A stretch of DNA of 60,601 nucleotides from a virus (Duplodnaviria > Caudoviricetes), in the IMG/VR virus record IMGVR_UViG_3300030012_003336, positions 1-60,601 of that record; one strand, given 5' to 3'. Of this stretch, positions 1 to 55,719 are shown one piece after another (within the stretch, counting starts at the first letter, position 1; every line of letters begins with the position of its first letter). The position numbers were made by a program, and so were the translations under genes. The notes beneath the pieces were generated by a model. It made no database searches and had not been told where the DNA came from. It worked only from the letters and a program-made list of their open reading frames with translations.

Positions 1-3000
1 CGGATCTCACTGGCTGTCTGATCTGCCGTAGCACCAGACTCGATGCCGTCGAGCTTCGAGCCGTCAGTGGCTACGTCTCTGCCGTCAATCGTGCCGGTAG
101 TAGTTAGATTCTGAGCAAGGTCAATGGTCTGTGTGCCGCCGTTAATAGTCAGGTAATTCGTAACGCCACTCGATCCATCATAGGCTCTAAGGAATATATC
201 TCTCCCTGATGAATCTGAGTTCTGAATAACGAGGTCATCAGTCAAGGCAGAGATAACTGAATTACCGTCCGTAACTTGATTTATCCTCATCTTGCTCCCG
301 AACTGAGCAAAAAGTCCTTGGTTTAGAATGAGGTTTCCAGTCAGCGTGCCACCAGCGAGTGGTAGCTTGGTAGCTATACTATTAGTGATGGTCGTCGAGA
401 AGTTCGCGTCATCACCAATCGCAGCCGCCAACTCATTGAGCGTGTCGAGTGCTCCTGGTGCAGCGTCCACTAGGTTGGATACAGCCGTGCTAACAAAGGC
501 GGTGGTTGCAATGCGAGTGGAATCGTTTCCAGCACTCTGAGTCGGGGCGGTAGGATTCCCAGTCAGAGCTGCACTGGAGAACATCGTAGCCTTGGACTCA
601 TTCGTTACGTTGCCCAGTCCGATTGAGGAAGGTGTGACTGAGAAGTCCAACGTGCCATCACCATCTTGGTAAGTGACAGTAACGCCTGTTTCGGTGTTGC
701 TGCTGACCATCCCGCCCACGATGTCTTGGACCTGCTCAGTAGACAGTTGCGTGTTGGTGTCAGTAGCTGTGATAGTTCCGTCAGACCCTATCGAAATATT
801 TGATCCAGCAGTTAAGGCGGCAACCACATTTGCGGTGTCGGTTACGTCTGCGCTGGCCTCGATAGCGTTGAGCTTAGAATGATCTGCGTCAGTGAATACG
901 TTCGAGTCAGATGCTGATTCGACTAAAGTGCGGATCTCTGCGGCTGTTTGATCTGCTGTTGCCCCTGACTCGATACCGTCAAGCTTCGATCCGTCAGTAG
1001 CTACGTCCCTGCCATCTATAGTCGAAGTTGTTGTAAGAGGCTTACTAAGTAAGATGTCTTCTACATTACCCCTTAATTTAAGATACTGGGTGACTCCTCC
1101 AGAGCCGTTATCGCACTGGAACTCGATACTCTTAGAATCTGCATTTTGTGTGAAATACAAATCTCCGTTAGCGTTCTCGAAAAACGAATCCGTGCCATCG
1201 TGCGAAAGCTTAATATCAAACCCGCTTCCTACTCCTAGTGATGTTCCATCTGTAAACTTTGTGTTTGCAGAAATCGTGCCACCAGTATTTAGCATCAACG
1301 CACCCGCAGCAGCTACGTTGGTGGCGTCAGTTACATCGGCGCTGGCCTCTATTCCATCTAACTTACTGTGGTCGGCGTTGGTAAAGTTTTGGTCAGTCTG
1401 TGAAGCAACAGAGAAGTCCAACGTGCCATCACCGTCCTGATAGGTAACGGTGATCCCACTTTCAGTGTTGCTGCTTACCATCGCCCCCACGATGTCCTGA
1501 ACCTGCTCGCTTGATAGCTGCGTGTTCGTATCGGTAGACGAGATAGTTCCGTCCGATCCGATACTAATGTTCGATCCAGCCGACAGCGCGGCGACAACAT
1601 TGGCGGTGTCAGTTACGTCTGCCGAGGCTTCAATGTTATTTAGTTTTGTATGATCTGCATCAGTAAATACGTTCGAATCGGAGGCTGATTCGACCAAAGC
1701 GCGAATCTCACTGGCCGTTTGGTCCGCAGTAGCACCAGACTCAATACCATCTAGCTTTGCATGATCTGCTGTCGTAAAATTCTCGTCAGTCTGTGAAGCA
1801 ACAGAGAAGTCCAACGTGCCATCACCGTCTTGGTAAGTGACGGTAATACCACTCTCCGTGTTGCTGCTAACCATGCCGCCCACGATGTCCTGCACCTGCT
1901 CGTTCGAGAGTTGTGTGTTGGTATCCGTAGCCGCTATGGTTCCGTCACTGCCGATACTAATGTTTGATCCTGCGGATAGCGCAGCGACTACGTTTGCCGT
2001 ATCGGTTACGTCTGCACTAGCCTCAATCGCGTTGAGCTTAGAATGATCAGCGTCAGTGAATACATTCGAGTCGGAGGCTGACTCTACAAGTGCGCGGATC
2101 TCAGAGGCTGTTTGATCCGCTGTTGCCCCTGACTCAATGCCGTCTAATTTACTATGATCGGCATTGGTGAAGTTTTGATCAGTCTGAGAAGCTACGGCAA
2201 AGTCGATTGTTCCGTCGGCATCTTGATAGGTGACGGTGATACCAGACTCTGAGTTGCTACTGACCATAGCCCCCACGATGTCCTGAACTTGTTCGTCGGA
2301 AAGTTGGGTATTGGTATCAGTAGACGAGATAGTTCCGTCCGATCCGATGGAAATGTTGGAACCGGCAGATAGCGCGGCAACTACGTTTGCTGTGTCGGTT
2401 ACATCTGCATTAGCTTCTATACCGTCTAGCTTGGTAGAGGATGCATCGTTAAAGTTGTTTGTATTAGAATTGCTAAGGTAGAGCGTTCGTATCTCCGAAG
2501 CAGTCTGGTCGCCAGTTGCCCCTGCCTCTATACCATCTAACTTCGCATGATCTGCTGTCGTAAAGTTTTCGTCAGTCTGGGACGCAACAGCGAAGTCGAG
2601 CGTTCCGTCTCCGTCCTGATAAGTGACCGTAATCCCACTTTCAGTGTTACTACTGACCATTCCACCCACAATATCCTGAACCTGCTCGTTAGACAGTTGG
2701 GTATTAGTGTCGGTAGAAGAAATTGTTCCGTCAGTTCCTATCGAGATGTTTGACCCCGCAGACAAAGCAGCGACTACGTTTGCTGTATCGGTTACGTCCG
2801 CTGAAGCCTCGATGCCGTCCAGTTTAGAACCATCAGAAGATACGTCTCTGCCATCTACGTTACCAACATTCGTGATGGCGTTACCACCCATGTTCAGACC
2901 ACCCGACATTGTGCCTCCGGCAAGTGGTAACTTGGCGGCAATGCTATTTGTTATTGTAGTGGAGAAGTTCGCGTCATCACCAATAGCGGCGGCTAGTTCA

Positions 3001-6000
3001 TTCAACGTGTCGAGCGCAGCAGGTGCTGAGTCAACAAGATTGCTTACCTGGGTATTAACAAAAGACTGCGTAGCGTAACTAGGATCAGAATCAGGAACCC
3101 AAGACGGCGTAACGTCCGCTCCTGCCTCTATGCCATCCAGCTTCGCATGATCTGCTGTCGTAAAATTTTCGTCAGTCTGTGAAGCGACAACGAAGTCGAG
3201 CGTTCCGTCTCCATCTTGATAAGAGACTGTAATACCACTTTCGGTATTACTGCTGACCATGCCCCCCACGATGTCCTGAACCTGCTCGTTAGACAGTTGG
3301 GTGTTGGTATCTGTGGATGAAATCGTTCCGTCAGATCCAATAGATATGTTTGATCCCGCAGACAATGCAGCGACTACGTTGGCGGTATCCGTAACATCTG
3401 CACTGGCTTCTATAGCGTTGAGCTTAGAATGATCATCGTCAGTAAATACGTTAGAATCTGTAGCGGCGTCAACCAACGTGCGGATCTCACTGGCCGTTTG
3501 ATCAGCCGTAGCGTTAGCTTCTATACCGTCAAGCTTTGCATGATCTGCTGTCGTAAAGTTTTCGTCAGTCTGAGACGCAACAGAGAAGTCGATTGTTCCG
3601 TCTCCATCTTGGTAAGAGACGGTAATACCACTCTCTGTGTTACCAGAAAGCATCCCACCCACAATATCCTGAACCTGCTCGTTAGATAATTGGGTGTTGG
3701 TATTAGTAGCTGCTATGGTTCCGTCAGATCCAATAGATATGTTTGATCCTGCTGACAAAGCAGCAACTACGTTCGCGGTATCAGTCACATCGGCTGATGC
3801 CTCAACGCCAGACAGTTTTGTTTGCAGTGCGTCAGTAAACGCATTCGTGTCGCTGTTGCTCTCGTAGAGCGTTTTTATTTCACTGGCTGTCTGGTCAGCG
3901 GTAGCGCCGGATTCAATCCCGTCTAGCTTTGCATGATCTGCTGTCGTAAAGTTTTCGTCAGTCTGGGACGCAACAGCGAAGTCCAACGTGCCATCGGCAT
4001 CTTGATAAGTTACTGTGATTCCACTTTCAGTGTTACTACTGACCATTCCACCCACGATGTCCTGAACTTGCTCGTTAGACAGTTGAGTGTTGGTATCAGT
4101 AGCTGCAATGGTTCCGTCAGATCCAATAGATATGTTTGACCCAGCAGACAAGGCGGCGACTACGTTGGCCGTGTCGGTTACATCTGCTGAAGCTTCGATT
4201 CCATCCAGCTTTGCGTGATCCGCTGTTGTAAAATTTTCGTCAGTTTGAGATGCGACAGTGAAGTCAATCGTCCCATCAGCATCTTGATAAGCTACGGTGA
4301 TTCCGGTTTCGGTATTCCCCGAGAGCATCCCACCAACGATGTCCTGCACTTGCTCGTTCGAGAGTTGAGTATTCGTGTCGGTAGATGCGATAGTCCCGTC
4401 AGTTCCTATCGAAATATTAGAACCTGCGGATAGCGCCGCCACTACGTTTGCTGTATCGGTGACATCTGCCGAGGCTTCAATGCCGTCGAGCTTTGTGTGG
4501 TCGGCGTCAGTAAATACGTTAGAATCGGTAGCGGAATCGACTAAGGTTCGTATCTCGCTGGCCGTCTGGTCGGCTGTTGCCCCCGACTCGATTCCGTCTA
4601 GTTTTGAGTGATCAGCCGTTGTGAAATTTTCGTCAGTCTGGGACGCAACAGCGAAGTCGATTGTTCCATCTCCGTCTTCATAGCTGACGGTGATTCCACT
4701 CTCAGTGTTTCCAGACAGCATTCCACCAACAATATCCTGAACCTGCTCAGTCGTTAGCTGTGTGTTAGTGTCGGTAGAGCTAATCGTTCCGTCAGATCCA
4801 ATCGATATGTTTGAACCTGCTGATAGCGCAGCGACTACGTTTGCCGTATCGGTTACGTCCGCTGAAGCCTCAATACCGTCTAGCTTTGCTCCGTCTGCAC
4901 TAACGTCCCGCCCGTCTACAGTCTGACTGCCGGACATGACTATGTTGCCTGTCATGGTCCCGCCAGCAAGAGGCAGCTTGGTAGCGATGCTATTAGTTAC
5001 AGTTGTCGAGAAGTTTGCGTCGTCACCAATCGCAGCAGCTAATTCGTTCAGCGTGTCTAATGCACCCGGTGCAGAATCCACTAGGTTACTTACTTGTGTG
5101 GTGACAAACGATTGGGTTGCATAACTAGGGTCAGCGTCAGGAACCCAAGTGGGTGTTACGTCTGCTCCTGCTTCTATGCCGTCTAATTTAGCATGATCGG
5201 CAGTGGTAAAATTCTCGTCAGTCTGTGAAGCGACAGCGAAGTCGATTGTCCCATCGCTGTCTTCATAGGTGACTGTAATTCCAGACTCAGTGTTGCCAGA
5301 CAGCATTCCACCAACGATGTCCTGAACCTGCTCATTCGATAGTTGGGTATTCGTGTCTGTAGCCGCTATGGTTCCGTCAGTTCCTATCGAGATGTTTGAA
5401 CCTGCCGATAATGCTGCGACCACGTTTGCGGTGTCCGTAACATCTGCCAACGCTTCAATGCCGTCGAGCTTCGCATGGTCAGCCGTTGTGAAATTCTCAT
5501 CAGTCTGAGACGAAACAGCGAAATCGATTGTTCCATCGGCATCTTGATAAGTGACTGTTACCCCGCTCTCAGTGTTGCCCGTGAGCATACCACCCACGAT
5601 GTCCTGAACCTGCTCGTTCGAGAGTTGTGTGTTGGTATCTGTCGCAGAGATAGTTCCGTCCGTGCCGATGGAAATGTTCGACCCAGCGGACAATGCGGCT
5701 ACCACGTTGGCCGTGTCAGTTACATCTGCCGCCGCCTCGATGTTGTTTAATTTATTGTGGTCAGCATCCGTGAATACGTTGGAGTCGGAAGCGGCCTCAA
5801 CTAACGTGCGGATCTCCGCAGCAGTTTGATCAGCAGTTGCATTATCCTCAATGTTGTCGAGCTTTGCGTGATCCGCTGTTGTGAAGTTCTCGTCAGTCTG
5901 GGACGCAACAGCGAAGTCGATTGTCCCGTCACTGTCCTCATACGTGACTGTGATTCCTGATTCAGTGTTGCCCGTGAGCATACCACCCACGATGTCCTGA

Positions 6001-6660
6001 ACCTGTTCGTTCGATAGCTGTGTGTTGGTATCGGTAGCGGCAATAGTTCCATCAGTTCCTATGCTGATATTTGAACCTGCTGATAAAGCAGCGACTACGT
6101 TCGCGGTATCGGTTACGTCTGCGGAAGCTTCAATCCCATCCAGCTTACTGTGATCAGCATCCGTGAATACGTTAGAATCCGAAGCTGACTCAACGAGTGC
6201 TCTAATCTCTGCGGCTGTTTGATCTGCGGTCGCATTCGCTTCAATACCATCTAACTTACTGTGATCAGCGGTGGTAAAGTTTTCGTCGGTCTGAGACGCA
6301 ACCGCGAAGTCAATCGTTCCGTCACTGTCCTCGTAGGTGACGGTAATTCCAGACTCAGTATTGCTGGCGACCATTGCGCCAACGATGTCTTGAACTTGCT
6401 CAGTAGTCAGAGCAGCCGAAGTTGCCGAAATAGTTCCGTCGGATCCAATCGCTATGTTGGTGCCAGCGGTAAGTGCAGAGACTACGTTTGCGGTATCGGT
6501 TACGTCTGCGGAAGCTTCAATGGCATTGAGCTTAGTATGATCAGCGTCAGTAAAGACGTTGGAATCCGTAGCCGACTCAACAAGTGCTCGGATTTCCGCA
6601 GCGGTCTGATCTGCGGTAGCTGATGCTTCGATAGCATTCAGTTTGCTTAGTAATGCGTCA
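1..6660 (-). repeat. Coding tandem repeats of the fibre (393-nt/131-aa and 282-nt/94-aa units)
   Basis: Recurrent ADVTDTANVVAALSAGSNISIGSDGTI..TDTNTQLS.EQVQDIVG.M..NTESGITVTY.D.DGT.DF.VASQTD.NFT.ADH.KLDGIE, with or without a 37-aa ATADQTASEIR.LV.SASDSNVFTDADH module. Confidence 0.95.
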
Positions 6661-7061
6661 GTGAACGCATTTGACCCCGTGCCATTGATGGTCAGGGCGT
6701 CCGTCTCAAGAGTTCCGTCTACATCGACGTTACCCGAAATGTCCAGGGAAGCAGCAGAAAATTCGCCGGTAAGAGAAGCATTGCCAGATTTAAGAACTAT
6801 AAACTTAGAAGACCCACTAAGTTGTAGGTCTAAAAGTTCGCTAGTAGCTGCGCTAGAAGTGTCGGTCGCATTAACCAGTAAGCTGGTAAACTCAGTCCCA
6901 CTGGCGTTCCATGTTGGGGTGATCGTGAGATTACCGTCGATGTCTCCTCCAGAGCCGAGATTGGCACCAGAGTTAGTCGTTACTATGGAGGCTGAGTTGG
7001 TGGACTGAGTTACCGTTACTGAATTAGTTGCTTGGTTTACAGTTACGGTTTCGTTAGCCAT
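1..7061 (-). CDS. Giant repetitive tail fibre/adhesin, N-terminal part (runs off left edge, >=2353 codons)
   Basis: ATG at 7061 (MANETVTVNQATNSV...). The frame at position 5 (..GIESGATADQTASEI) matches the start frame. Contains the fibre motif VDSAPGALDTLNELAAAIGDDANFSTT three times and ~14 QVQDIVG repeat units. Absent from the ORF track because there is no stop inside the window. Confidence 0.9.
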   Translation of the reverse strand, partial: MANETVTVNQATNSVTVTQSTNSASIVTTNSGANLGSGGDIDGNLTITPTWNASGTEFTSLLVNATDTSSAATSELLDLQLSGSSKFIVLKSGNASLTGEFSAASLDISGNVDVDGTLETDALTINGTGSNAFTDALLSKLNAIEASATADQTAAEIRALVESATDSNVFTDADHTKLNAIEASADVTDTANVVSALTAGTNIAIGSDGTISATSAALTTEQVQDIVGAMVASNTESGITVTYEDSDGTIDFAVASQTDENFTTADHSKLDGIEANATADQTAAEIRALVESASDSNVFTDADHSKLDGIEASADVTDTANVVAALSAGSNISIGTDGTIAATDTNTQLSNEQVQDIVGGMLTGNTESGITVTYEDSDGTIDFAVASQTDENFTTADHAKLDNIEDNATADQTAAEIRTLVEAASDSNVFTDADHNKLNNIEAAADVTDTANVVAALSAGSNISIGTDGTISATDTNTQLSNEQVQDIVGGMLTGNTESGVTVTYQDADGTIDFAVSSQTDENFTTADHAKLDGIEALADVTDTANVVAALSAGSNISIGTDGTIAATDTNTQLSNEQVQDIVGGMLSGNTESGITVTYEDSDGTIDFAVASQTDENFTTADHAKLDGIEAGADVTPTWVPDADPSYATQSFVTTQVSNLVDSAPGALDTLNELAAAIGDDANFSTTVTNSIATKLPLAGGTMTGNIVMSGSQTVDGRDVSADGAKLDGIEASADVTDTANVVAALSAGSNISIGSDGTISSTDTNTQLTTEQVQDIVGGMLSGNTESGITVSYEDGDGTIDFAVASQTDENFTTADHSKLDGIESGATADQTASEIRTLVDSATDSNVFTDADHTKLDGIEASADVTDTANVVAALSAGSNISIGTDGTIASTDTNTQLSNEQVQDIVGGMLSGNTETGITVAYQDADGTIDFTVASQTDENFTTADHAKLDGIEASADVTDTANVVAALSAGSNISIGSDGTIAATDTNTQLSNEQVQDIVGGMVSSNTESGITVTYQDADGTLDFAVASQTDENFTTADHAKLDGIESGATADQTASEIKTLYESNSDTNAFTDALQTKLSGVEASADVTDTANVVAALSAGSNISIGSDGTIAATNTNTQLSNEQVQDIVGGMLSGNTESGITVSYQDGDGTIDFSVASQTDENFTTADHAKLDGIEANATADQTASEIRTLVDAATDSNVFTDDDHSKLNAIEASADVTDTANVVAALSAGSNISIGSDGTISSTDTNTQLSNEQVQDIVGGMVSSNTESGITVSYQDGDGTLDFVVASQTDENFTTADHAKLDGIEAGADVTPSWVPDSDPSYATQSFVNTQVSNLVDSAPAALDTLNELAAAIGDDANFSTTITNSIAAKLPLAGGTMSGGLNMGGNAITNVGNVDGRDVSSDGSKLDGIEASADVTDTANVVAALSAGSNISIGTDGTISSTDTNTQLSNEQVQDIVGGMVSSNTESGITVTYQDGDGTLDFAVASQTDENFTTADHAKLDGIEAGATGDQTASEIRTLYLSNSNTNNFNDASSTKLDGIEANADVTDTANVVAALSAGSNISIGSDGTISSTDTNTQLSDEQVQDIVGAMVSSNSESGITVTYQDADGTIDFAVASQTDQNFTNADHSKLDGIESGATADQTASEIRALVESASDSNVFTDADHSKLNAIEASADVTDTANVVAALSAGSNISIGSDGTIAATDTNTQLSNEQVQDIVGGMVSSNTESGITVTYQDGDGTLDFSVASQTDENFTTADHAKLDGIESGATADQTASEIRALVESASDSNVFTDADHTKLNNIEASADVTDTANVVAALSAGSNISIGSDGTISSTDTNTQLSSEQVQDIVGAMVSSNTESGITVTYQDGDGTLDFSVASQTDQNFTNADHSKLDGIEASADVTDATNVAAAGALMLNTGGTISANTKFTDGTSLGVGSGFDIKLSHDGTDSFFENANGDLYFTQNADSKSIEFQCDNGSGGVTQYLKLRGNVEDILLSKPLTTTSTIDGRDVATDGSKLDGIESGATADQTAAEIRTLVESASDSNVFTDADHSKLNAIEASADVTDTANVVAALTAGSNISIGSDGTITATDTNTQLSTEQVQDIVGGMVSSNTETGVTVTYQDGDGTLDFSVTPSSIGLGNVTNESKATMFSSAALTGNPTAPTQSAGNDSTRIATTAFVSTAVSNLVDAAPGALDTLNELAAAIGDDANFSTTITNSIATKLPLAGGTLTGNLILNQGLFAQFGSKMRINQVTDGNSVISALTDDLVIQNSDSSGRDIFLRAYDGSSGVTNYLTINGGTQTIDLAQNLTTTGTIDGRDVATDGSKLDGIESGATADQTASEI

Positions 7062-11769: not shown

Positions 11770-12046
11770 TTACGATTTCGTTCGGTTGGTTTTTAGTAGG
11801 AGTATTCGACAACTTGTAGAGGTCGTTCAGTGCGTCCCGGTAACCCGCATACCAAGCATGACGCATTGCATTACTTTCTGCATCTTGCAAAGTATTGTAC
11901 GACGGTCCAGCTAATTCTTTGAGGGTAGCCGCCGCTTTACGGAAAGTCTCGCTCGCCAATAAAGCTCTAAGCTCTTCAACAGTTTTTACATCCCGATACC
12001 AAGTATCAAGAGGGACCGGGGGCGTAATTGGTTTTTGTTTAGCCAT
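11747..12046 (-). CDS. Small head-module protein
   Basis: 99 aa; overlaps the MTase stop and the scaffold start. Confidence 0.75.
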
Positions 12047-12957
12047 TAGTTATGTAGTTCGCGTAGTAAATCGGAAAAAGCTTTGGCAACAACAGCAGGG
12101 ACACAACCATTACCCAGCATTCTCAGTCGGTCGGTGCGGTTCGCCACCGGGCACACAATTGTGTCCACCCAACCAGGGGGAGGCCCATCAACTGCTCCAC
12201 CCAATTCGGATTCAATCTCCCCGTTTCCCGATCCGGAATCCCGGTCCCGGTTTCCTGCAACCCGTGGGTGCTCCCACTCATGCTGGTCCTCTTCAGGTAA
12301 ACTAGGCCACCGTAGTTGTGGACTTCCCTCCCTAAAAGACAGTTTGACGGGACATTCCGACAACTCCCCGCCGTCCCGTCCTTCCAATCCCGACTCGTCG
12401 GCGTGGGCCAAGATGAAGACTCTTTTCCGCTGGTGGGGGCCCCCAACTTCGCTCGCCGTAAACATTCCGAACGAACATCGGTAATCTTCTCGCTCCAACT
12501 CTCGGAGGACATGCAACAATACCGGCGTCCCAGCCGGGTCTCCCCAGTGGTCTCCTTTGAGTTCGCTCGTAATGATTCCTTCGACGTTCTCGAGGAACAC
12601 GTAGCGAGGTCGAATAACTCTAATTGCATTCTTTATGTAGGGGAAGAGGTGCCGTCCGTCTGAATCCGCGTTCCGGCGTCCGGGGACAGAGAACGGGGTG
12701 CATGGGAAACCTCCGCTGATAATCTCAATGCCTTTTGGAAAGCATTCCAATGGCAGGGTTTTAATGTCCGTCCACAAAGGTGCCGGATCCAAGTAGCCCG
12801 CTTCCATCTTACTAACCAGGTTTGCGATGGCGAAGGCTTCGACCTCCACGTAAGCGAGTGTTCTGCAATTCGGGAGAACTCTTCGGAGTCCGAGGTCGAT
12901 TCCTCCATACCCAGTGCAGAGCGATAAGTGTCTAATAGTTCCTCGGGCAAAATCCAC
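12046..12957 (-). CDS. DNA (cytosine-5) methyltransferase, large (alpha) chain
   Basis: Motif I LCTGYGG, IV GGFPC, VI ENV, VIII HQRKR, X LGNGCV; no recognisable motif IX in this frame. Confidence 0.92.
   Translation of the reverse strand: MDFARGTIRHLSLCTGYGGIDLGLRRVLPNCRTLAYVEVEAFAIANLVSKMEAGYLDPAPLWTDIKTLPLECFPKGIEIISGGFPCTPFSVPGRRNADSDGRHLFPYIKNAIRVIRPRYVFLENVEGIITSELKGDHWGDPAGTPVLLHVLRELEREDYRCSFGMFTASEVGGPHQRKRVFILAHADESGLEGRDGGELSECPVKLSFREGSPQLRWPSLPEEDQHEWEHPRVAGNRDRDSGSGNGEIESELGGAVDGPPPGWVDTIVCPVANRTDRLRMLGNGCVPAVVAKAFSDLLRELHN
12123..12629 (-). CDS. Overprinted methyltransferase small (beta) chain
   Basis: 168-aa ATG ORF in the +1 frame, entirely inside the MTase; WPTPTSRDWK and motif-IX-like RLNPNWVEQLMGLP. 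Confidence 0.7.
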   Translation of the reverse strand: MQLELFDLATCSSRTSKESLRANSKETTGETRLGRRYCCMSSESWSEKITDVRSECLRRAKLGAPTSGKESSSWPTPTSRDWKDGTAGSCRNVPSNCLLGREVHNYGGLVYLKRTSMSGSTHGLQETGTGIPDRETGRLNPNWVEQLMGLPLVGWTQLCARWRTAPTD

Positions 12958-16481: not shown

Positions 16482-16565
16482 GCCCTCGCATAGTAACACG
16501 GGCGGTATAGGCAAGAAAGACACCATTAGGGTGAGGGCATCGACACAACCTAGCAAAGTGTCGAT

Positions 16566-17039
16566 TTAAGGGCCTATATTCGACAGGTCCCCCCAGACCT
16601 CATGCAAAAGTTTGTCAACCCGAGCAAAAACTTGCCGTTTGTCGTAGCCCCTCAGGCGGACGCACTCATGTCCTTGGTGATCAACGGCAGTTACAACGTG
16701 TATACGTCCCGCGTTGGGACCCCGCTCATGGGGCTCTATACAGTAAACAAGACCATAGACAGTAATCGCATATCGGGTATTTGAAGGAATTACCCGTGCC
16801 TTTTCTGTGTGTAAGACATAATCCACAGACAACTCGGGCAATTTTTCGTCGTCGATAGCATCGTGACGAAATTTAAATGATTTCCCATTTTTATCTACAA
16901 CGGCTGTTCTTATGGCACCCCCGATATAACTAGGCGTTAACGCGCGGCCCGTCTTCAAGTTCATAACAAGACCGGTCTCTTCACAGAGGGCATAGTGGTT
17001 TGTGTCTGGAACACGCTTAAATCCGGTCGGTATCTGCAT
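16566..17039 (-). CDS. Tandem NUMOD4-like DNA-binding protein without nuclease domain
   Basis: Two copies of (V/I)P....YA....GLV; second ends CVRL..RVDKLLHEVW; no HNH motif. Confidence 0.55.
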   Translation of the reverse strand: MQIPTGFKRVPDTNHYALCEETGLVMNLKTGRALTPSYIGGAIRTAVVDKNGKSFKFRHDAIDDEKLPELSVDYVLHTEKARVIPSNTRYAITVYGLVYCIEPHERGPNAGRIHVVTAVDHQGHECVRLRGYDKRQVFARVDKLLHEVWGDLSNIGP

Positions 17040-17188
17040 ATCGCTACTCAAAAAGTTTTCTATAGACTATATATCTTATATTCCAGAATAAAAGATATAT
17101 CTATATTAGAAAAGTTTTCATTCTGGGTTTTGCATAAACACGCATCCACCTTAGGGCTAATCCCTGTTCAACGCCTTTTATTTTAACG

Positions 17189-17443
17189 CTATTCAGCGGT
17201 AGAGTCGCTTGCCTGCGCTTTTTTTAAATCTTGGTATCTCTCGGCTCTACGCTTCAAAAGACGCTCTCTGTTCTTGAGGTAATACTCGCGGTTGTATTTT
17301 AGCCTGCGCTCTATTTTTTCTGGGTCAACCGCCTCCTCAATTTGCCGTTTACGGTTAATCTTGTCTTTGTTTTTCTGGTAGTATTTACGCTGATACTCGC
17401 ACCTGGCCTGCTTATTTCTGTCGTAATAGGATGGCTGCTCCAT
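17189..17443 (-). CDS. Small basic protein with YYxxN repeats
   Basis: YYDRNK, YYQKNK, YYLKNR; TTGACA at 17477-17472. Confidence 0.7.
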   Translation of the reverse strand: MEQPSYYDRNKQARCEYQRKYYQKNKDKINRKRQIEEAVDPEKIERRLKYNREYYLKNRERLLKRRAERYQDLKKAQASDSTAE

Positions 17444-17613
17444 TCCTCAATTAATGGAATTGATGGTATTTTGTCAAATTTTTTCATACACACTGATATA
17501 TATGAGTAGCGTGCCGCAGAAAAACGGCAGGGTGGGGGGTGGCGTGTCAACACGTAGCACACAACACACTGTATCCAGCTCGCTTCGCTCGTCGTATTTT
17601 TTGGGGGGAAAAG

Positions 17614-17917
17614 CTACCCGGGCCCGGGGCCCGGCAGCATGTTTGCAATCTACCCGGGCCCGGAGGCCCGGCAGCAGGCCACAGGCTCCCGGCTCCCGGT
17701 TCCCGGGTTCCGGCTCCCGCCATCATCCGCCGGTTGCACGGTTCCGGGTGCCGGATTCCGGGGGCCGGGATCATTTTACTAGGACCCCGCACCCCCGTGG
17801 AACGCGTGGAACAATCCAGCCTTTCCCGTGGAACACGCGTGGAACCCGGAGCCCGGAACCCGGAAAAAAGATTCAATTGTTCAATCCTTTTTACTTGTCA
17901 AAGGTGCCGGTTGCCGG
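17614..17917. repeat. CCGG-rich non-coding array
   Basis: ~20 CCGG in ~300 bp; direct repeat CTACCCGGGCCCGG(G/AG)GCCCGGCAGCA at 17614 and 17650; CGTGGAAC x4. Confidence 0.9.
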
Positions 17918-17923
17918 TAGCTT
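17895..17923 (+). promoter_or_regulatory. Early promoter (leaderless type)
   Basis: TTGTCA-17-TAGCTT, 8 nt before ATG 17932. Confidence 0.7.
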
Positions 17924-17931
17924 CCAACCGT

Positions 17932-18162
17932 ATGCAATTCTTACCCACTATTGAAGTCACGGGCGCGGTTTCCCTCGCCCTCAGTAAAGGCGCTTTAACA
18001 CTTCAGCCGGGCCAATGGATCCGGATTCACAAGGATTCCCCGCCCTCCCGTTTCGTACGCGTGAAGCCGAATGGAGTGATTTACGCAGTCCACCCGCACG
18101 GGAAAGAAGGCGTATCAAATGAGCGATTCCAAGAGGCTCTCACCTGCTGGCCCGTAAAGTAG
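17932..18162 (+). CDS. Early hypothetical protein (76 aa)
   Basis: MQFLPTIEV... start assigned from the promoter; the upstream ORF extension is low-complexity repeat. Confidence 0.7.
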   Translation: MQFLPTIEVTGAVSLALSKGALTLQPGQWIRIHKDSPPSRFVRVKPNGVIYAVHPHGKEGVSNERFQEALTCWPVK

Positions 18163-18185
18163 TAACCCCACACCATCCAAACAAT

Positions 18186-18683
18186 ATGAAAAGACAATTC
18201 CACATTACCACCGGCCGCAATCGCTCTGTTGAGAGAGTTTGGATTGAGGGCTCTGCCAATCTTCCCGGCTGGCGTCCGGGAGATAGATTCGACGCGCTAT
18301 TTCACAAGGGCGGTTTGATCTACCAAAAAAACCCCGCCGGAAAGCGGAAAGTTTCCGGAAAGAATGGAGAGCCCGTTCTGGACACGAACTCGAAAAAACT
18401 CGCGACGGTTTGCGGGTTCTCTACCGGTGACCGGCTCCCGGTGCAAGTCTCCCCGGATCATATCGCGATAGGGTGCCCTGATCAGTTAAACCGCTGGCGC
18501 GGGATAACGGAAACCGTAGACAGCGTCACGGCCGCCCGCAATCTTGAAAAGCTCCGGGCAATCGATCCCGCGCACGCGGCAAGGATTGAGGAACTCGAGT
18601 TGCAGCTTGCCAATTTGAAAGCCCTACGAGCGAACGCTCCGCGCGGGTGGGATATGGCTGAAACCTCAACCCCCAACGGATAG
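18186..18683 (+). CDS. Early protein, AbrB/SymE-like fold
   Basis: RVWIEG..GWRPGDRF and GFSTGDRLPVQV, two swapped-hairpin-like halves. Confidence 0.5.
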   Translation: MKRQFHITTGRNRSVERVWIEGSANLPGWRPGDRFDALFHKGGLIYQKNPAGKRKVSGKNGEPVLDTNSKKLATVCGFSTGDRLPVQVSPDHIAIGCPDQLNRWRGITETVDSVTAARNLEKLRAIDPAHAARIEELELQLANLKALRANAPRGWDMAETSTPNG

Positions 18684-18687
18684 ACCC

Positions 18688-19143
18688 ATGATGCGACTAG
18701 AAACCGTAAACGAGACGCGCCAGCTATTACGCGGGCGGTTGCTCTCGATTGAGAACCGGCTCCGGAATTGGGAAGACACGGCCCCGCACGGGCTACGGCT
18801 GACTTATTTCATAGAGGGCTTCGAGGGGTGGATTTCCCGCGAAGTTTTGCCGGGCGATTTCTTCCCTAGCCATGGGATCCCTACCGGCCGGGATGCGTTA
18901 GACTTTGCTGAATACTGCTGCCCTTCCCTCGCCACTTGGTGCCGGTTTTTACGGCTCCGGGATCCTCGAGCGGATGCGATTGACTACGGCATTTCCTGCC
19001 GGGTGGAAAAGCTCCCGGCTCCAGAGGAGGTTTATGACGAGTTCGGAGTTAACACCTGTAACACATTCAACACCCCGGCCCCGGCCCCGGCTCCGGGGGA
19101 TCCTCAATTTTGGGGGATAGATCACGACGGGGTTCCCTACTAA
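18688..19143 (+). CDS. Early hypothetical protein
   Basis: 151 aa, packed after the previous gene, followed by a terminator. Confidence 0.65.
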   Translation: MMRLETVNETRQLLRGRLLSIENRLRNWEDTAPHGLRLTYFIEGFEGWISREVLPGDFFPSHGIPTGRDALDFAEYCCPSLATWCRFLRLRDPRADAIDYGISCRVEKLPAPEEVYDEFGVNTCNTFNTPAPAPAPGDPQFWGIDHDGVPY

Positions 19144-19170
19144 CGGAGCCCGGAACCCGGAACCCGGAAG

Positions 19171-19204
19171 CCTCGCCCCTGCCACGGGGGCGGGGTTTTC
19201 TTTT
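19171..19204 (+). terminator. Intrinsic terminator
   Basis: CCTCGCCCCTG-CCA-CGGGGGCGGGG then TTTTCTTTT. Confidence 0.8.
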
Positions 19205-19258
19205 GGGGCACGCGCGGGCCGTGAGCCTGGCAAATGCCTGGCGCGTTGCGCTTTTTGC

Positions 19259-19287
19259 TTGTTCAATTCTTTCCTGGCGGGTATAGT
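19259..19287 (+). promoter_or_regulatory. Early promoter (leaderless type)
   Basis: TTGTTC-17-TATAGT, 8 nt before ATG 19296. Confidence 0.75.
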
Positions 19288-19295
19288 TCCCGCGT

Positions 19296-19508
19296 ATGAA
19301 TGACATGACCCTACTCCCGGCATACGGGAGAGATTACACAAGCCGGGCAAAAGTTCTGGCAGATTGGAACGCGGAAAAGGATTTTATCATTGCGGATATT
19401 TCCTCCCCGTATGATGGGAAGCCAGTTAATAAACAACAACTCGCCAAGGGAACGCGGGTGCAATTTCGCTACGCTCGGAATCTGAAAACATTTGTCCTTG
19501 CCATATGA
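19296..19508 (+). CDS. Small phage hypothetical protein
   Basis: 70 aa, PAYGRDY..ADW...KDF motif; ATGA overlap with the next gene. Confidence 0.75.
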   Translation: MNDMTLLPAYGRDYTSRAKVLADWNAEKDFIIADISSPYDGKPVNKQQLAKGTRVQFRYARNLKTFVLAI

Positions 19509-20386
19509 AAATTACCCAAAAGGTTTTACTTTCCGTCGCCCGGGAATTGATACGGGGAAAAACTAAACGCGCGGAAAAAATAGTTGCCAGCCTGCCGGCC
19601 GGTAGTTCCGCGTCGTGGTCTGGAGTATTTCAGAAGCTGATAAACCAAGCGAAGGCGCTTGAATCCGGCACCCTTGAACGGGGCGCATTCTCGATATTCG
19701 CAAAGGGAAACAGTAAGCTTCCGTTCTGGAGCTTTTCAAGCATGGCGGTTCTCGACTGTCCCGGCCGGGGAGATTGCGCGGGGTGGTGTTACAGTCTGAA
19801 ATCATGGCGCAACCCCAACGCAGCCGGGCGGCAAATCTCCAATAGCATGATTTTGCGCTACGCGTGCGGCCGGGATTTGATCCGGCGAGAGTTTGCCAAG
19901 CTGAAAACGGAGACGGTTCGCCTGTATGTCGACGGAGATTTCCCGGATAAAGAAACCCTCGCCTTTTGGATGGACACCATACGCACGCGCCCCGAGGTGT
20001 CCGTCTATGGCTATTCGAAAAGCTGGGTTGAGTTTATGGCATTACAGCTTTCCGGTTTCGATTGGCCTGCCAACTATCTACTGAATCTTTCCGGCGGATC
20101 CCGGCACCCGGAGCCCCTACGCGCGGCAATGGAATCTTTACCCGTAACACGCGGGGAATTCTTAGCCGTGCCAGTGGACCGGGAGCATCTTAAAAACCAC
20201 GCTTACCAATCCCGCCGGAACGTGGGTTTCCGGTCCTATGCAAAGCAGGTGCGGGAAAACTCCCCGCGTTCCGTCTTTGTATGCTCCGGAACTTGTGGCG
20301 ATTGTCTCACCATCCGCGGGGAGAATGTCCACGCGTGCGGATTTGAAGGCATGAGAGGGAAGGCAATCGCAATCGGAACCCATTGA
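19505..20386 (+). CDS. Gp88-like Cys-rich (radical-SAM-like Fe-S) protein
   Basis: GNSKL, CPGRGDCAGWCY, RLYVDGDF, YGYSK, C-terminal CSGTCGDC..C..IAIGTH. Confidence 0.75.
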   Translation: MKITQKVLLSVARELIRGKTKRAEKIVASLPAGSSASWSGVFQKLINQAKALESGTLERGAFSIFAKGNSKLPFWSFSSMAVLDCPGRGDCAGWCYSLKSWRNPNAAGRQISNSMILRYACGRDLIRREFAKLKTETVRLYVDGDFPDKETLAFWMDTIRTRPEVSVYGYSKSWVEFMALQLSGFDWPANYLLNLSGGSRHPEPLRAAMESLPVTRGEFLAVPVDREHLKNHAYQSRRNVGFRSYAKQVRENSPRSVFVCSGTCGDCLTIRGENVHACGFEGMRGKAIAIGTH

Positions 20387-20464
20387 TTAAATGAGAATCC
20401 TTAGCTTTCTGATTTCCCTTTTCTTTCTCCTGTTTGCTTTTCACATTGGGATTTCCTTTCTGTC

Positions 20465-20770
20465 ATGGCTGTGGAATTGACAACCGCTGCCGCTATCCTC
20501 GAGGCTATGAATATTGACACGGGCGACGTTGCGCGTGTCCACTTGGGGCGCGGGGAAATGGCATTGGCGGAAATCTGGCAACCGCTCCCGGAAGACTGGA
20601 CACGGCCCCCGGCGGAATGGCGGGGAGATACCCCAGAGGATCCGCTCGGAAAAACCCCGCCGGAAAAAATGGTCATGATCCGCTTTGAGGGCTCCCGGGA
20701 TTGGGAGCCTTGCTCTGTGCATGATGTCTCGCCATACGATCCGGTCTGGCATGATCGCCCCGCCTGGTAA
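20465..20770 (+). CDS. Early hypothetical protein
   Basis: 101-aa ATG ORF. Confidence 0.55.
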   Translation: MAVELTTAAAILEAMNIDTGDVARVHLGRGEMALAEIWQPLPEDWTRPPAEWRGDTPEDPLGKTPPEKMVMIRFEGSRDWEPCSVHDVSPYDPVWHDRPAW

Positions 20771-20848
20771 TCCTGGCACCCTGCACCCGGAAGCCGGGCT
20801 CCGGACTCCGGGCCCTGGCATTCCTGGCCCCGCCGCTGGTGGGCACCC

Positions 20849-20916
20849 GCGCGATGACCGGCGCGATGACCGGCGCATGACCGGCGCATGACCGGCGCAT
20901 GACCGGCGCATGACCG
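20849..20916. repeat. Non-coding tandem repeat
   Basis: GCGCGATGACCG x2 then GCGCATGACCG x4. Confidence 0.95.
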
Positions 20917-20964
20917 GCGGACCACTCGCCTGGCAAGCCTGGAAAAAAAAGATGCAGAAAGAAA

Positions 20965-20993
20965 TGGACAACACCTTATGGGCACGGTAGCGT
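20965..20993 (+). promoter_or_regulatory. Early promoter (leaderless type)
   Basis: TGGACA-17-TAGCGT, 9 nt before ATG 21003, A-tract upstream. Confidence 0.6.
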
Positions 20994-21002
20994 CTTCCCC
21001 GT

Positions 21003-21377
21003 ATGAAAGACCAACCACCGGCCATCGGCCACAAGCAGGCGACCCTTCGCACCCCCATCGTTCTCCCCCTCATCCATCCCAACGGTAATGATCGGGAGAC
21101 TCTCCGCGCCCAATACGCGAAAGCCGACAACCACCTAGCCGACGCTCGCGAGGCCTTCAACAAAATCGAATTCCACCCGCGCGACTACTACCCGCTAGGG
21201 CAAGATGCCATCGCGGTAAGTAGCGCAGCACGCGCCGCAATCCATGCCGCCTTCGACATTATCGAAGCGTATCTGGAAGAGCACACTCTGGCCCTCACCC
21301 TGCCTGAGGAACCCCGCACCATCAAAGAGATGCGCGTGGGATATGCCCTGCCGGAAGACGAGCCTGCTACCCTCTAG
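21003..21377 (+). CDS. Phage hypothetical protein
   Basis: 124 aa, PLIHPNG..HPRDYYP motif. Confidence 0.75.
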   Translation: MKDQPPAIGHKQATLRTPIVLPLIHPNGNDRETLRAQYAKADNHLADAREAFNKIEFHPRDYYPLGQDAIAVSSAARAAIHAAFDIIEAYLEEHTLALTLPEEPRTIKEMRVGYALPEDEPATL

Positions 21378-55029: not shown

Positions 55030-55719
55030 CTAAATAATAAAAGATTTGAGATGTCCAACACGAAGTTTGGGGACTACTAGAGGCTTAATACCAGTGACTT
55101 TGTAGCAATTATTGCAGAAACTTACGTCCTCAAAAGACAGGTCTTCTACGTCAAATATCCTATCTTTGTTATTAGGGTCCACGCATCCCTTCACGCTAAC
55201 GTGATTCAGGGGGTAGTATGGGTATTTCATCTTCTCATAAATAGAACGATGAACTCTGGTAAACCCAAACCCACACCAGTCAACTCGCAACAGCTTGTCG
55301 GATTCTTCCGCTTTCTCCTTCAAAAACTTGGCCGAAGTGAACGGCATATGTAGGTGTTTGCGAAAGTGTTTTTTGTCCCACAGGCCCACCATAGCTGCAT
55401 CAGTGAAGTTGCTTTGATACCACCCCGTAACGAATTTATGTTTATCTTTGATACCGTGTAGGTGCTTAATCTGATCAAGCGTAAATTGAATATCGGAGTC
55501 GATCCAAAACAACCACTCAGCCTCGATCGGTGTGGGGTCCATATAACCTGACCCGCCAGTAGCCAGATGATTCCTAGCAAAGTTGAGAAACATTCCCTGG
55601 CACGTAACAATCTGAGAATTGTTCTCTTCGCACCAAGTATGTAACTCTAAGTATTGCTCGAAAAGCAACCCGTGGATTCCGCGATGATCAATCGGTATTA
55701 AGAAAGCAGTGTCAATCAC
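55030..55719 (-). CDS. GT-A fold (GT2-like) glycosyltransferase
   Basis: ARN, WIDSD (DxD), CGFGF, EDVSFC, VGHLK. Confidence 0.75.
   Translation of the reverse strand: MIDTAFLIPIDHRGIHGLLFEQYLELHTWCEENNSQIVTCQGMFLNFARNHLATGGSGYMDPTPIEAEWLFWIDSDIQFTLDQIKHLHGIKDKHKFVTGWYQSNFTDAAMVGLWDKKHFRKHLHMPFTSAKFLKEKAEESDKLLRVDWCGFGFTRVHRSIYEKMKYPYYPLNHVSVKGCVDPNNKDRIFDVEDLSFEDVSFCNNCYKVTGIKPLVVPKLRVGHLKSFII

What the first reader, a model, noticed from the sequence alone, without database searches (positions are those of the whole stretch)
17614..21000. CCGG-saturated early region with arrays ahead of each promoter
Seen: ~20 CCGG in 17617-17917, 7 in 19073-19170, 10 in 20785-20918, and roughly 18 inside the 882-nt Gp88-like gene (counts by eye). 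CGGAGCCCGGAACCCGGAA occurs at both 17847 and 19144, and CCTGG clusters lie near 19227-19277 and 20772-20942. Phages usually avoid palindromes, so local enrichment is unexpected. Inference: a methylation-linked entry system in which the sites are marked by the phage or host C5-MTase and act as a self signal, a decoy for restriction enzymes, or a landing pad for an ejected or early protein.
Basis: partly seen in the sequence, partly recalled or inferred. Interest (0 to 1): 0.75.

Follow-up and report, generated by a model that had tools for sequence, protein, structure and literature searches.

The report
CCGG-word arrays in phage early region
The first 3.4 kb of early genes of an uncultured marine phage is packed with the four-letter word CCGG, in short repeat arrays around its start signals and inside its genes, and the word is kept by selection, most likely as landing sites for a DNA-binding protein that is not yet identified.

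Summary
Observation confirmed. All four CCGG counts are exact: 83 CCGG in 17614-21000, which is 24.5/kb against 3.7/kb elsewhere and the most enriched tetramer. The excess survives codon correction. In six early genes CCGG ranks 1 of 256 tetramers (50 against 35.2; 0 of 1000 synonymous shuffles reach it). Between strains CCGG is the best-kept tetramer (87 of 120 against a background of 0.46).

Relatives share the layout. Short arrays, mostly 7-bp units, form two inverted blocks upstream of the first operon, sit between its stop codon and terminator, and lie ahead of the third start. Their units differ and lack CCGG.

The methylation link gets no comparative support. Two relatives carry the cytosine methylase, one of them a 75-77% identical orthologue, and neither is CCGG-saturated.

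Best reading (0.38): CCGG words are multi-copy protein recognition sites that control early transcription. One candidate reader is the early protein at 18186-18683. Its N-domain has an MraZ-like fold (Z 7.6) and is fused to C5 methylases elsewhere. Against this candidate, arrays also occur without it. Function is unproven.

An earlier scan note (e1-6072951) describes a GATC/CCGG-saturated early cassette in another marine phage.

The parts
12046..12957 (-). C5 cytosine DNA methyltransferase gene (catalytic chain; an overlapping frame was noted earlier), candidate writer of CCGG marks
   Evidence: Pfam PF00145 E 3.7e-28. Orthologue in G003 is 75-77% identical, and the overlapping frame is 60% identical. 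Target sequence unknown.
17189..17443 (-). 84-aa basic protein gene, divergent from the early operon, next to array 1
   Evidence: Translation. Homologues stand at the same place in G003 and L105. No Pfam family at E<=5. Atlas shows only viral hypothetical clusters.
17445..17510 (.). Conserved ~45-bp element with face-to-face -35/-10-like hexamers (inferred divergent promoters)
   Evidence: Read. Nearly the same letters occur in G003. Other strains' contigs share 17464-17503 and diverge on both sides (loose ends). Not found by the strict promoter scan.
17617..17676 (.). Two copies of CTACCCGGGCCCGG(G/AG)GCCCGGCAGCA, holding 6 CCGG, which fold on each other
   Evidence: Terminator-like site on the minus strand at 17634-17618.
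17684..17719 (+). Left heptad block (GGCTCCC/CTCCCGG) x5.1, C-rich on the + strand
   Evidence: TRF period 7. Pairs with the right block in the fold.
17730..17771 (+). Right heptad block (CCGGGTG, CCGGATT, CCGGGGG, CCGGGAT), the inverse of the left block
   Evidence: TRF period 14, which is 2x7. Fold z -3.15. Terminator-like site at 17754-17772 on the + strand.
17797..17845 (+). Four GTGGAAC direct repeats (operator- or iteron-like)
   Evidence: 4 of the 11 copies in the genome lie here. G003 has TGTTCA..TGAACA palindromes at this place.
17841..17865 (+). (CCCGGAR) x3.6 heptads followed by an A-tract
   Evidence: TRF. Same 19-mer as at 19144.
17895..17931 (+). Inferred first early start signal: TTGTCA, a spacer holding two TGCCGGT heptads, GGTAGCTT, then CGTATG
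   Evidence: Read. The GGTAnnnT..CGTATG pattern recurs before 19296 and 21003. Not confirmed by the consensus scan.
17932..18162 (+). 76-aa early gene (2 CCGG)
   Evidence: No family.
18186..18683 (+). 165-aa early protein with an N-terminal MraZ-like barrel (residues 1-100) and C-terminal long helices; candidate reader of the arrays (10 CCGG in the gene)
   Evidence: AF2 pLDDT 94.3 for residues 1-100. MraZ takes the top four rows, Z 7.6-6.7 with 88-89 of 100 residues aligned; the next row is 3.8. The family has 383 representatives. The domain is fused to C5 methylases and to an HNH nuclease.
18688..19143 (+). 151-aa early gene (13 CCGG), with (CCCCGG)x4 at 19073-19096 coding PAPAPAPG
19144..19169 (+). 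(CCCGGAA) x3.7 heptads between the stop codon and the terminator
   Evidence: TRF. Heptads stand at the same place in G003 (CCCTCAC x4.4) and L105 (CCTGCAT x2.9). L108 has CGGAGCC x4.3 there.
19177..19205 (+). Intrinsic terminator of the first operon
   Evidence: stem 19177-19195 followed by TTTTCTTTTG.
19226..19295 (+). Three + strand CCTGGC words and the inferred second start signal
   Evidence: CCTGG is kept 14 of 14 between strains. Top/bottom strand count is 9/0 here and 11/0 in G003.
19296..20770 (+). Second operon: 70-aa gene, GP88-family gene 19505-20386 (18 CCGG) and 101-aa gene
20772..20942 (+). Third array zone: CCTGGC words, (CCGGGCT)x2.9 at 20794-20813, and (ACCGGCGCATG)x6.6 at 20845-20919
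   Evidence: G003 has (ACCTGCGG)x8 at the same place, with one more unit inside its promoter spacer.
20943..21005 (+). A-tract and inferred third start signal ending in CGTATG at 21003
   Evidence: Read. Not confirmed by the scan.

Best explanation
The CCGG words are cis-acting recognition sites on duplex DNA. They are this lineage's version of a control architecture that its phage family shares.

Short tandem arrays, mostly contiguous 7-bp units, sit in four places. Two inverted blocks lie between the divergent start signals upstream of the first early operon. One array lies between that operon's stop codon and its terminator. One lies ahead of the third start. Single units lie inside a promoter spacer.

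I propose that a protein with a short recognition core binds these units side by side and cooperatively. Known examples of this way of working are the omega repressor on its heptads and MraZ on its boxes. The weaker, dispersed CCGG written into the first two operons would extend the complex over about 3.4 kb. This would time or shut off early transcription, and perhaps mark a replication start.

Shown: the enrichment, its selection, the conserved array positions, and the inverted symmetry. Inferred: that a protein reads them, which protein it is, and the effect on transcription.

One candidate reader is the early protein encoded at 18186-18683, which has an MraZ-like fold. It is a candidate only.
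For: (1) CCGG is the top tetramer by density and by synonymous-shuffle z (50 against 35.2, rank 1 of 256). It is also top by conservation between strains: window against L108 and L109, 87 of 120 kept against a background of 0.46, rank 1 of 195, p 4.5e-9. These two comparisons share the window and are not independent.

(2) Its flanks are free and roughly strand-symmetric, and it occupies all three codon phases. This points to a duplex-DNA word, not an RNA or protein constraint.

(3) In the GP88 gene, 11 of the 18 CCGG sites fall on residue pairs identical in G003. At 6 of those 11, only this lineage uses the CCGG-making codons.

(4) Arrays stand at the same places in G003, L105 and L110-L113 with other units.

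(5) The left and right blocks stay complementary in 7 lineages although their units differ. Both strands fold about equally well. This is what inverted binding arrays would give.

(6) Array units lie inside core promoter spacers in two lineages: 2x TGCCGGT before 17932 and ACCTGCGG in G003.

(7) The protein encoded behind the first start has an MraZ-like fold. All top four rows are MraZ, Z 7.6-6.7, and the next row is 3.8. Its domain is fused to C5 methylases (P0145, P0153) and an HNH nuclease (P0099), so a DNA-binding role is likely.

(8) 8 of 10 metagenome loci with a homologue of that protein have a short-period array within about 600 bp upstream (no matched control was run).

(9) The array unit changes in step with the divergence of that protein: CCGG units at 73-98% identity, CCCGC-type heptads at 50-59%, and 11-bp units at 39-40%.

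(10) Precedents, read as passages. Omega/ParB of pSM19035 binds 7-10 contiguous 7-bp repeats, direct or inverted, that overlap three promoters (PMC9499535). MraZ binds series of direct repeats upstream of its operon (PMC8475190).
Against: No binding or expression data exist.

The strict promoter scan finds no sigma-70 site in 17300-21100, so 'ahead of each promoter' rests on reading by eye.

G006/L105 has heptad arrays (CCTGCAT) at the same places, but no MraZ-like domain was found in its 37-kb record. Its first early protein is unrelated. That record is only 66% complete.

None of the 18 other IMG/VR loci that carry (CCCGGAA) repeats encodes the domain in the fetched stretch, and they share no neighbouring gene family.

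The step-wise change of unit with protein divergence is also what shared ancestry alone would give.

A bare 4-bp palindrome with free flanks is more typical of a restriction-modification enzyme site than of a regulator's operator.

Three of the six early genes show no CCGG excess on their own, and two control genes elsewhere reach z 2.6-2.7.
Confidence: 0.38

Rival explanations
1. Methylation-coupled signal. CCGG is the target of the phage's C5 methyltransferase. The dense cluster would work like GATC clusters at oriC or in the P1 pac site, where the methylation state (full, hemi or none) is read to time early transcription, replication start or another DNA transaction.
For: An exact 4-bp palindrome with free flanks is the typical shape of a type II methylase site. 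That CCGG is the HpaII/MspI word is recalled, not tested. The phage encodes a C5 methylase. The early protein's domain is fused to C5 methylases in other proteins. Clusters of a methylatable 4-bp palindrome inside short repeats are known. The P1 pac site has seven TGATCA/G hexamers in two groups around the cut site (passages of PMC10028697). High GATC density occurs at oriC, oriI and oriII (passages of PMC2865523). An earlier scan note (e1-5969435, unchecked) links site-packed spacers to a cytosine methylase in another phage.
Against: G003 has the orthologous methylase (75-77% identical; overlapping frame 60%). G005 has a 59% relative. Neither is CCGG-saturated. In G003 early genes CCGG is depleted (z -2.25), and between G003-clade strains it is kept only at background (10 of 19 against 0.53). 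The methylase target is unknown. Arrays of relatives carry no common palindrome.
Confidence: 0.2
2. Structural or insulating element with slippage by-product. The arrays are GC-rich inverted repeats kept for their hairpin or cruciform, as bidirectional terminators or insulators around the start signals. CCGG is abundant because the unit amplified by slippage happened to contain it.
For: Left and right blocks are complementary in 7 lineages with different units (z -3.2 to -4.7). Terminator-like sites lie at 17634-17618 on the minus strand and 17754-17772 on the + strand. Units change in concert: CGGAACC here against CGGAGCC in L108. The same heptad array occurs in 18 unrelated IMG/VR loci.
Against: It does not explain the 50 CCGG inside genes, their excess over synonymous shuffles, or the site-by-site conservation of CCGG above other GC-rich tetramers (0.72 against 0.32-0.69). 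The arrays after the stop codon and ahead of the third start are not inverted repeats.
Confidence: 0.17
3. Defence-related DNA word. CCGG sites, or the oriented words SCGGAA and CCTGGC, act on a host nuclease. They could be a decoy or sink for a restriction enzyme, or Chi-like sites that protect the first-entering DNA.
For: The early region is expressed first and G003 encodes an ArdC-like protein there (the similarity is judged by eye from the translation). Two oriented words are strongly strand-biased: CGGAA 22/11 here and 20/1 in G003, and CCTGG 9/0 and 11/0.
Against: There is no evidence that this region enters first or lies at a physical end. Contigs bridge 16500-17981. CCGG itself is a palindrome, so it cannot be orientation-dependent. 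The word differs between sister clades that probably have similar hosts. No decoy of this kind is known to me (recalled).
Confidence: 0.08
4. Compositional artefact or recently imported module. The region is a higher-GC cassette whose codon use happens to make CCGG.
For: GC is 56-57% here against 49% for the whole record. CpG and CGCG are also raised. Even shuffled genes give 13.6 CCGG/kb.
Against: CCGG exceeds every one of 1000 synonymous shuffles and ranks first of 256. It is the best-conserved tetramer between strains, whereas CGCG and GCGC are not.
Confidence: 0.05

Closest known systems
Omega (ParB-pSM) heptad arrays of plasmid pSM19035
   Same: Contiguous 7-bp units occur in direct and inverted orientation, several arrays per replicon, placed at or over promoter regions. 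One small dimer binds each unit and binds cooperatively (passages of PMC9499535).
   Different: Omega's unit is WATCACW, a non-palindrome, and its reader is a ribbon-helix-helix protein. No such protein was identified here. Here the word also fills coding DNA over 3.4 kb. The setting is a lytic-type phage early region, not a plasmid partition and copy-control system.
MraZ and its boxes upstream of the dcw/mra operon
   Same: The early protein's N-domain has the MraZ fold (Z 7.6-6.7). MraZ binds a series of short direct repeats upstream of its own operon (passages of PMC8475190; PDB titles 9r4j and 9sz7).
   Different: There is no sequence-family match (no Pfam hit at E<=5). A C-terminal helical extension is present. 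There is no mraW neighbour. The repeats here have 7- and 11-bp periods and carry CCGG. Binding is untested.
Methylation-read clusters of a 4-bp palindrome: GATC at oriC and V. cholerae origins, and the P1 pac hexamers
   Same: There is a local many-fold excess of one methylatable tetranucleotide palindrome, partly inside short repeats arranged in two groups around a central segment. The genome encodes a DNA methylase (PMC2865523 and PMC10028697 passages).
   Different: Those use N6-adenine methylation of GATC with known readers (SeqA, PacA/PacB). Here the mark would be C5-cytosine, the methylase target is unknown, and two relatives with the methylase lack the cluster.
Short repeat arrays next to the early promoters at the left end of T7, and repeat-rich first-step-transfer DNA of T5 (both recalled, not read here)
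   Same: Arrays of short repeats lie close to the first host-type promoters. T7-like marine phages with a homologue of the early protein carry 11-bp arrays upstream of it.
   Different: Those arrays lie beside physical genome ends. No end is shown here, and the arrays recur 1.3 and 3 kb further in.

Membership tests
Omega-type heptad operator/centromere arrays | Contiguous 7-bp repeats, at least 4 in a row | tested here: met
   TRF period 7: 5.1 copies at 17684-17719, 3.6 at 17841-17865, 3.7 at 19144-19169. 18 of 82 CCGG spacings are 7 bp.
Omega-type heptad operator/centromere arrays | Units in direct and inverted orientation | tested here: met
   The left block nnCCCGG and the right block CCGGGnn pair with each other.
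Omega-type heptad operator/centromere arrays | Arrays overlap promoters | tested here: inconclusive
   Two units lie in the spacer of the start signal read by eye before 17932. The consensus scan finds no promoter.
Omega-type heptad operator/centromere arrays | Ribbon-helix-helix reader encoded by the replicon | tested here: inconclusive
   No Pfam family was found for the six small early proteins at E<=5. Absence of a hit does not exclude such a protein.
MraZ family | Tandem swapped-hairpin barrel fold | tested here: met
   9r4j Z 7.6, 9sz7 7.0, 9qlg 6.7, 1n0e 6.7, with 88-89 of 100 residues aligned at rmsd 2.8-3.0; the next row is 3.8. 1n0e scores Z 6.5 in the wide search. Foldseek gives no match at E<=0.001.
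MraZ family | Sequence membership (Pfam MraZ model) | tested here: not met
   No Pfam family at E<=5 and none at 0.01.
MraZ family | Binds direct-repeat boxes upstream of its own operon | not testable with these tools
   Arrays lie upstream in 8 of 10 homologue loci, but binding needs an experiment.
Methylation-read palindrome cluster (oriC / P1 pac type) | Local cluster of one methylatable 4-bp palindrome | tested here: met
   20 CCGG in 301 bp and 83 in 3387 bp, against 3.7/kb elsewhere.
Methylation-read palindrome cluster (oriC / P1 pac type) | Cognate methylase with that specificity | not testable with these tools
   A C5 methylase is present but its target is unknown.
Methylation-read palindrome cluster (oriC / P1 pac type) | Cluster tracks the methylase across relatives | tested here: not met
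   G003 (orthologue 75-77% identical) and G005 (59%) carry a methylase without CCGG saturation.
First-entering terminal DNA (T5 FST / T7 left end) | Region adjoins a physical genome end | tested here: inconclusive
   Logan contigs bridge 16500-17981 and 17188-17869. Contigs cannot show ends, and no raw-read run was available.

The most novel reading that the evidence does not exclude
An m5C-based epigenetic timer in a lytic marine phage. The two-chain C5 methylase marks CCGG late in infection, so the incoming genome carries a densely methylated 3.4-kb early domain. The MraZ-fold early protein, whose domain is fused to C5 methylases elsewhere, reads the methylation state of the heptad arrays and dispersed sites. 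It switches the early promoters or a nearby origin off once unmethylated or hemimethylated daughter DNA appears. This would be SeqA/oriC logic built on cytosine methylation and a new reader fold.
Probability: 0.1. Interest if true: 0.85.

Novelty: new variant of a known kind. Interest (0 to 1): 0.6.

Why it matters
Phage genomes are known for avoiding short palindromes. Here one palindrome is positively selected, about seven-fold above the rest of the genome, in the first-expressed 3.4 kb, both in repeat arrays and inside genes by synonymous codon choice.

Sister lineages use other words at the same array positions, so the word and whatever reads it evolve quickly. This gives a tractable system for asking how uncultured marine phages time their early genes.

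It also points to an uncharacterised MraZ-fold domain family (383 representatives at 50% identity clustering) that is fused to cytosine methylases and an HNH nuclease.

The scan has noted palindrome-packed early cassettes in other phages (e1-6072951, e1-5969435; unchecked). The phenomenon may therefore be general.

Tried and rejected
G-quadruplex/i-motif idea. The heptads give C3/G3 runs every 7 nt, but the window holds no canonical four-run motif. G003 has 3 and L105 has 1. Rejected as the common property.

RNA-level element. Top and bottom strands fold about equally well in all 7 lineages, and CCGG flanks are strand-symmetric. No Rfam family reaches its gathering score. The best row is a CRISPR repeat model at 27.9 bits against a gathering score of 39, which is chance.

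Very-short-patch-repair type mutational drive. CTGG is not depleted in the region (6.2/kb against 3.2/kb) and CCAG is only mildly so (2.1 against 3.5). Nothing explains why such a drive would be local.

Physical genome end. All 20 public runs are kept as contigs. Laying four of them gave bridging contigs over array 1, contig breaks inside the 11-bp array at 20890-20895 in two runs, and no joints. This is no evidence either way. No repeat-number variation was seen in those contigs.

GC-skew profile follows gene orientation and says nothing about an origin.

Shared partner of (CCCGGAA) arrays. The 18 IMG/VR loci with the 19-mer have no MraZ-like domain and no common neighbouring family. Only L135 is a distant relative (polymerase 32% identical). 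Some of these arrays may be coding.

Searches for relatives. The GP88 protein alone found nothing in viral contigs. The two-row alignment found two loci. Alignment A3 in viral contigs found only G003. The 5-kb DNA has no match in the phage collection. The closest cultured phage polymerase is 27.6% identical.

The first AF2 model, from 7 sequences, was poor (pLDDT 62). Foldseek on the good model gave no match at E<=0.001.

Supplementary files of papers were not consulted. The Eraso 2014 MraZ paper is not held, so details of the E. coli MraZ boxes are recalled only.

Full report
WHAT THE WINDOW IS. The window is a whole IMG/VR virus record of 60601 bp, classed as linear, with a CheckV estimate of 100% complete. 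It encodes a terminase, a family-A DNA polymerase, a primase, an exonuclease, giant fibre proteins and a C5 cytosine methylase. No cultured phage is close: the best polymerase identity is 27.6% and the early region has no DNA match in the phage collection. Relatives are common in marine viromes. 570 stretches encode a polymerase relative, and the early region itself is held by marine runs of several studies.

THE OBSERVATION. The region has 24.5 CCGG/kb against 3.7/kb in the rest, the largest ratio of any tetramer. Thirty-three sites lie in 801 nt of non-coding DNA and 50 in 2586 nt of six genes. Tandem Repeats Finder reports eight short arrays with periods 6, 7, 11 and 14. Of 82 spacings between neighbouring CCGG, 18 are 7 bp, 6 are 6 bp and 5 are 11 bp. 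The letters around CCGG are variable and roughly strand-symmetric.

IS IT MORE THAN COMPOSITION?
- The region is GC-richer, at 56-57% against 49%.
- With the amino-acid sequence and each gene's own codon use held fixed, the six early genes still hold 50 CCGG against 35.2 expected. None of 1000 shuffles reaches 50, and CCGG ranks first of 256 tetramers.
- Per gene, three are significant and three small ones are not. Two control genes elsewhere also reach z 2.6-2.7.
- Against genome-wide codon use the three genes reach z 3.2, 5.7 and 6.6.
- In the GP88 gene, 11 of the 18 CCGG fall on residue pairs that are identical in the orthologue of G003. At 6 of those 11, only this lineage uses the CCGG-making codons.
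- Between this record and two other strains of the same clade (L108 and L109, about 76-80% nucleotide identity), CCGG is kept at 87 of 120 sites against a background of 0.46. It is first of 195 tetramers, p 4.5e-9. CGCG and GCGC, which are also enriched, are kept no better than background. The two comparisons share the window and are not independent.

The enrichment is therefore real and maintained by selection on the word itself.

ANATOMY.
- Left of the region, an 84-aa basic protein is read leftwards from 17443.
- A conserved ~45-bp element follows at 17445-17510. It carries -35/-10-like hexamers on both strands.
- Next come two copies of a 26-27-bp CCCGGG-rich unit, at 17617-17676.
- A left heptad block that is C-rich on top follows at 17684-17719, and a right block that is its inverse at 17730-17771.
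- After these stand four GTGGAAC repeats, (CCCGGAR)x3.6 and an A-tract.
- Then comes a start signal read by eye, whose spacer holds two TGCCGGT units. It ends in CGTATG at 17932.
- Operon 1 consists of 76-, 165- and 151-aa genes. It ends with (CCCGGAA)x3.7 placed exactly between the stop codon and an intrinsic terminator.
- CCTGGC words, all on the + strand, precede the second and third start signals.
- The third start is also preceded by (CCGGGCT)x2.9 and (ACCGGCGCATG)x6.6.
- The strict sigma-70 scan finds no promoter in the region. The three starts rest on the recurring GGTAnnnT..CGTATG pattern and on its conservation in G003.
- CCGG density falls from about 20/kb in operons 1-2 to 5-9/kb in the genes after 21003.

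RELATIVES.
- G003 is 57.8 kb, with GP88 72% identical and the early protein 46-50% identical. It has the same layout but at most 5 CCGG per 500 bp.
- G003 has arrays with other units at the homologous places. (CGCTCCG)/(CGCCCCG) and a G-rich inverse block lie upstream of the first operon. (CCCTCAC)x4.4 lies between the stop codon and the terminator. (ACCTGCGG)x8 lies ahead of the third start, with one more unit inside that promoter's spacer.
- L105/G006 (GP88 54% identical) uses CCTGCAT and its inverse.
- Metagenome loci fall into groups. L108, L109 and L110 (early protein 98, 91 and 73% identical) are CCGG-dense with the same arrays. In L108 the post-stop unit has changed in concert to CGGAGCC, and CCGG is kept. 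L111-L113 (50-59%) have CCCGC-type heptads. L114-L116 (39-40%, T7-like) have 11-bp arrays such as CACCTACCGGG x8.
- In seven lineages the left and right blocks remain complementary (fold z -3.2 to -4.7). Both strands fold about equally well. This argues for a duplex-level inverted arrangement and not an RNA element.
- In the G003 clade, CCGG is neither enriched in early genes (14 against 21.1, z -2.25) nor kept above background (10 of 19). Other words stand out there: CCCG at z 5.9 and AGCGG at z 6.4.
- Two oriented words are shared by both clades: CCTGG (9/0 and 11/0, top/bottom strand) and CGGAA (22/11 and 20/1).

THE METHYLATION LINK. The phage has a C5 methylase. G005 has a 59% relative. 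Neither relative is CCGG-saturated. G004 (100% complete) has no methylase, and none was found in G002 and G006, whose records are incomplete. It remains open for specificity, which I could not determine.

A CANDIDATE READER.
- The 165-aa product of 18186-18683 has no Pfam or PHROG family.
- A profile search finds 383 representatives, mostly stand-alone proteins of about 100 aa.
- Of ten representatives scanned, nine of them longer fused forms, two carry the domain in front of a C5 methylase and one in front of an HNH nuclease.
- With 58 sequences, AlphaFold gives pLDDT 94.3 for residues 1-100.
- The top four structural matches are all MraZ, including MraZ on its promoter. They score Z 7.6-6.7 over 88-89 of 100 residues, and the next row is 3.8. 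The wide search agrees, with 1n0e at Z 6.5.
- These Z values are middling by the tool's own note. The gap to the next row and the full coverage make the fold assignment reasonable.
- MraZ binds series of short direct repeats upstream of its operon (passages of PMC8475190).
- Eight of ten homologue loci have a short array within about 600 bp upstream (no control was run).

Against the assignment, G006 has arrays but no such domain in its record, which is 66% complete. The 18 other viral contigs that carry (CCCGGAA) repeats also lack it.

MECHANISM PROPOSED. I take the arrays as side-by-side recognition units for a small oligomeric DNA-binding protein. They are arranged in inverted blocks around a central operator-like segment and repeated at the ends of the first transcription units. 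This resembles omega on its contiguous heptads at three promoters of pSM19035 (passages of PMC9499535). The dispersed genic CCGG would be weaker secondary sites that let the complex cover operons 1-2. The likely effect is timing or shut-off of early transcription, and a role at a replication start is possible. The enrichment, its selection and the architecture are shown. My confidence is 0.38. A methylation-dependent version (0.2) and a purely structural version (0.17) remain live.

VERDICT. This is a confirmed, selected and lineage-specific word saturation, built on a family-wide array architecture. I class it as a new variant of known multi-copy recognition arrays, with an unidentified reader.

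Noticed in passing
whole window: GTAC is strongly avoided everywhere. Observed/expected by the trinucleotide model is 0.13 in the early region and 0.17 in the rest. This looks like ordinary restriction-site avoidance and contrasts with the CCGG excess.
   Followed up: no
window 349, 12429, 20835, 22142, 24266, 54936, 58606: The octamer GCTGGTGG occurs 7 times against 1.36 expected, and 0 of 100 shuffles reach 7. One copy lies in the third array zone. It is the E. coli Chi word (recalled). Orientation is mixed.
   Followed up: partly
window 17614-21000; L102 5200-9300: Two oriented words are shared by both clades. CGGAA is 22 on the top strand against 11 on the bottom here, and 20 against 1 in G003. 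CCTGG is 9/0 and 11/0. CCTGG is kept 14 of 14 and 7 of 7 between strains. Their reader is unknown.
   Followed up: partly
window 17797-17845; L102 5340-5400 and 6070-6120: Four GTGGAAC direct repeats lie between the arrays and the first start. G003 has TGTTCA..TGAACA palindromes at the same place and again before its second operon. They may be operators or origin iterons.
   Followed up: no
L102 6564-7454 (G003): G003 carries a 296-aa gene in its early region whose translation looks like an ArdC-type antirestriction/zincin protein. This is judged by eye and no family search was run. This window has a 151-aa gene at that place instead.
   Followed up: no
L095 6780-7107 and 7287-7508; L122 1-145 and 2078-2166: More distant relatives carry much longer short-period arrays near the helicase or early genes: (CTGCACAGA)x36 and x25, (CAGGA)x19 and (CCTGTTACCGGTTA)x5.8. 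Whether they are coding was not checked.
   Followed up: no
L082, L083, L084, L090, L094, L097, L099, L100: Eight of 19 related contigs end 0.7-2.9 kb upstream of the helicase gene. This suggests a hypervariable or repeat-rich stretch there that breaks assemblies.
   Followed up: no
L106 3857-4270 (GenBank AP013544.1): A 137-aa homologue of the MraZ-fold early protein in a T7-like Mediterranean phage is annotated as 'C-5 cytosine-specific DNA methylase', although it is far too short to be one. This is probably a name carried over from fused forms.
   Followed up: partly
window 3-7061 and 55716-60599: Both ends of the record cut a giant repeat-rich fibre gene on the minus strand.
   Followed up: no
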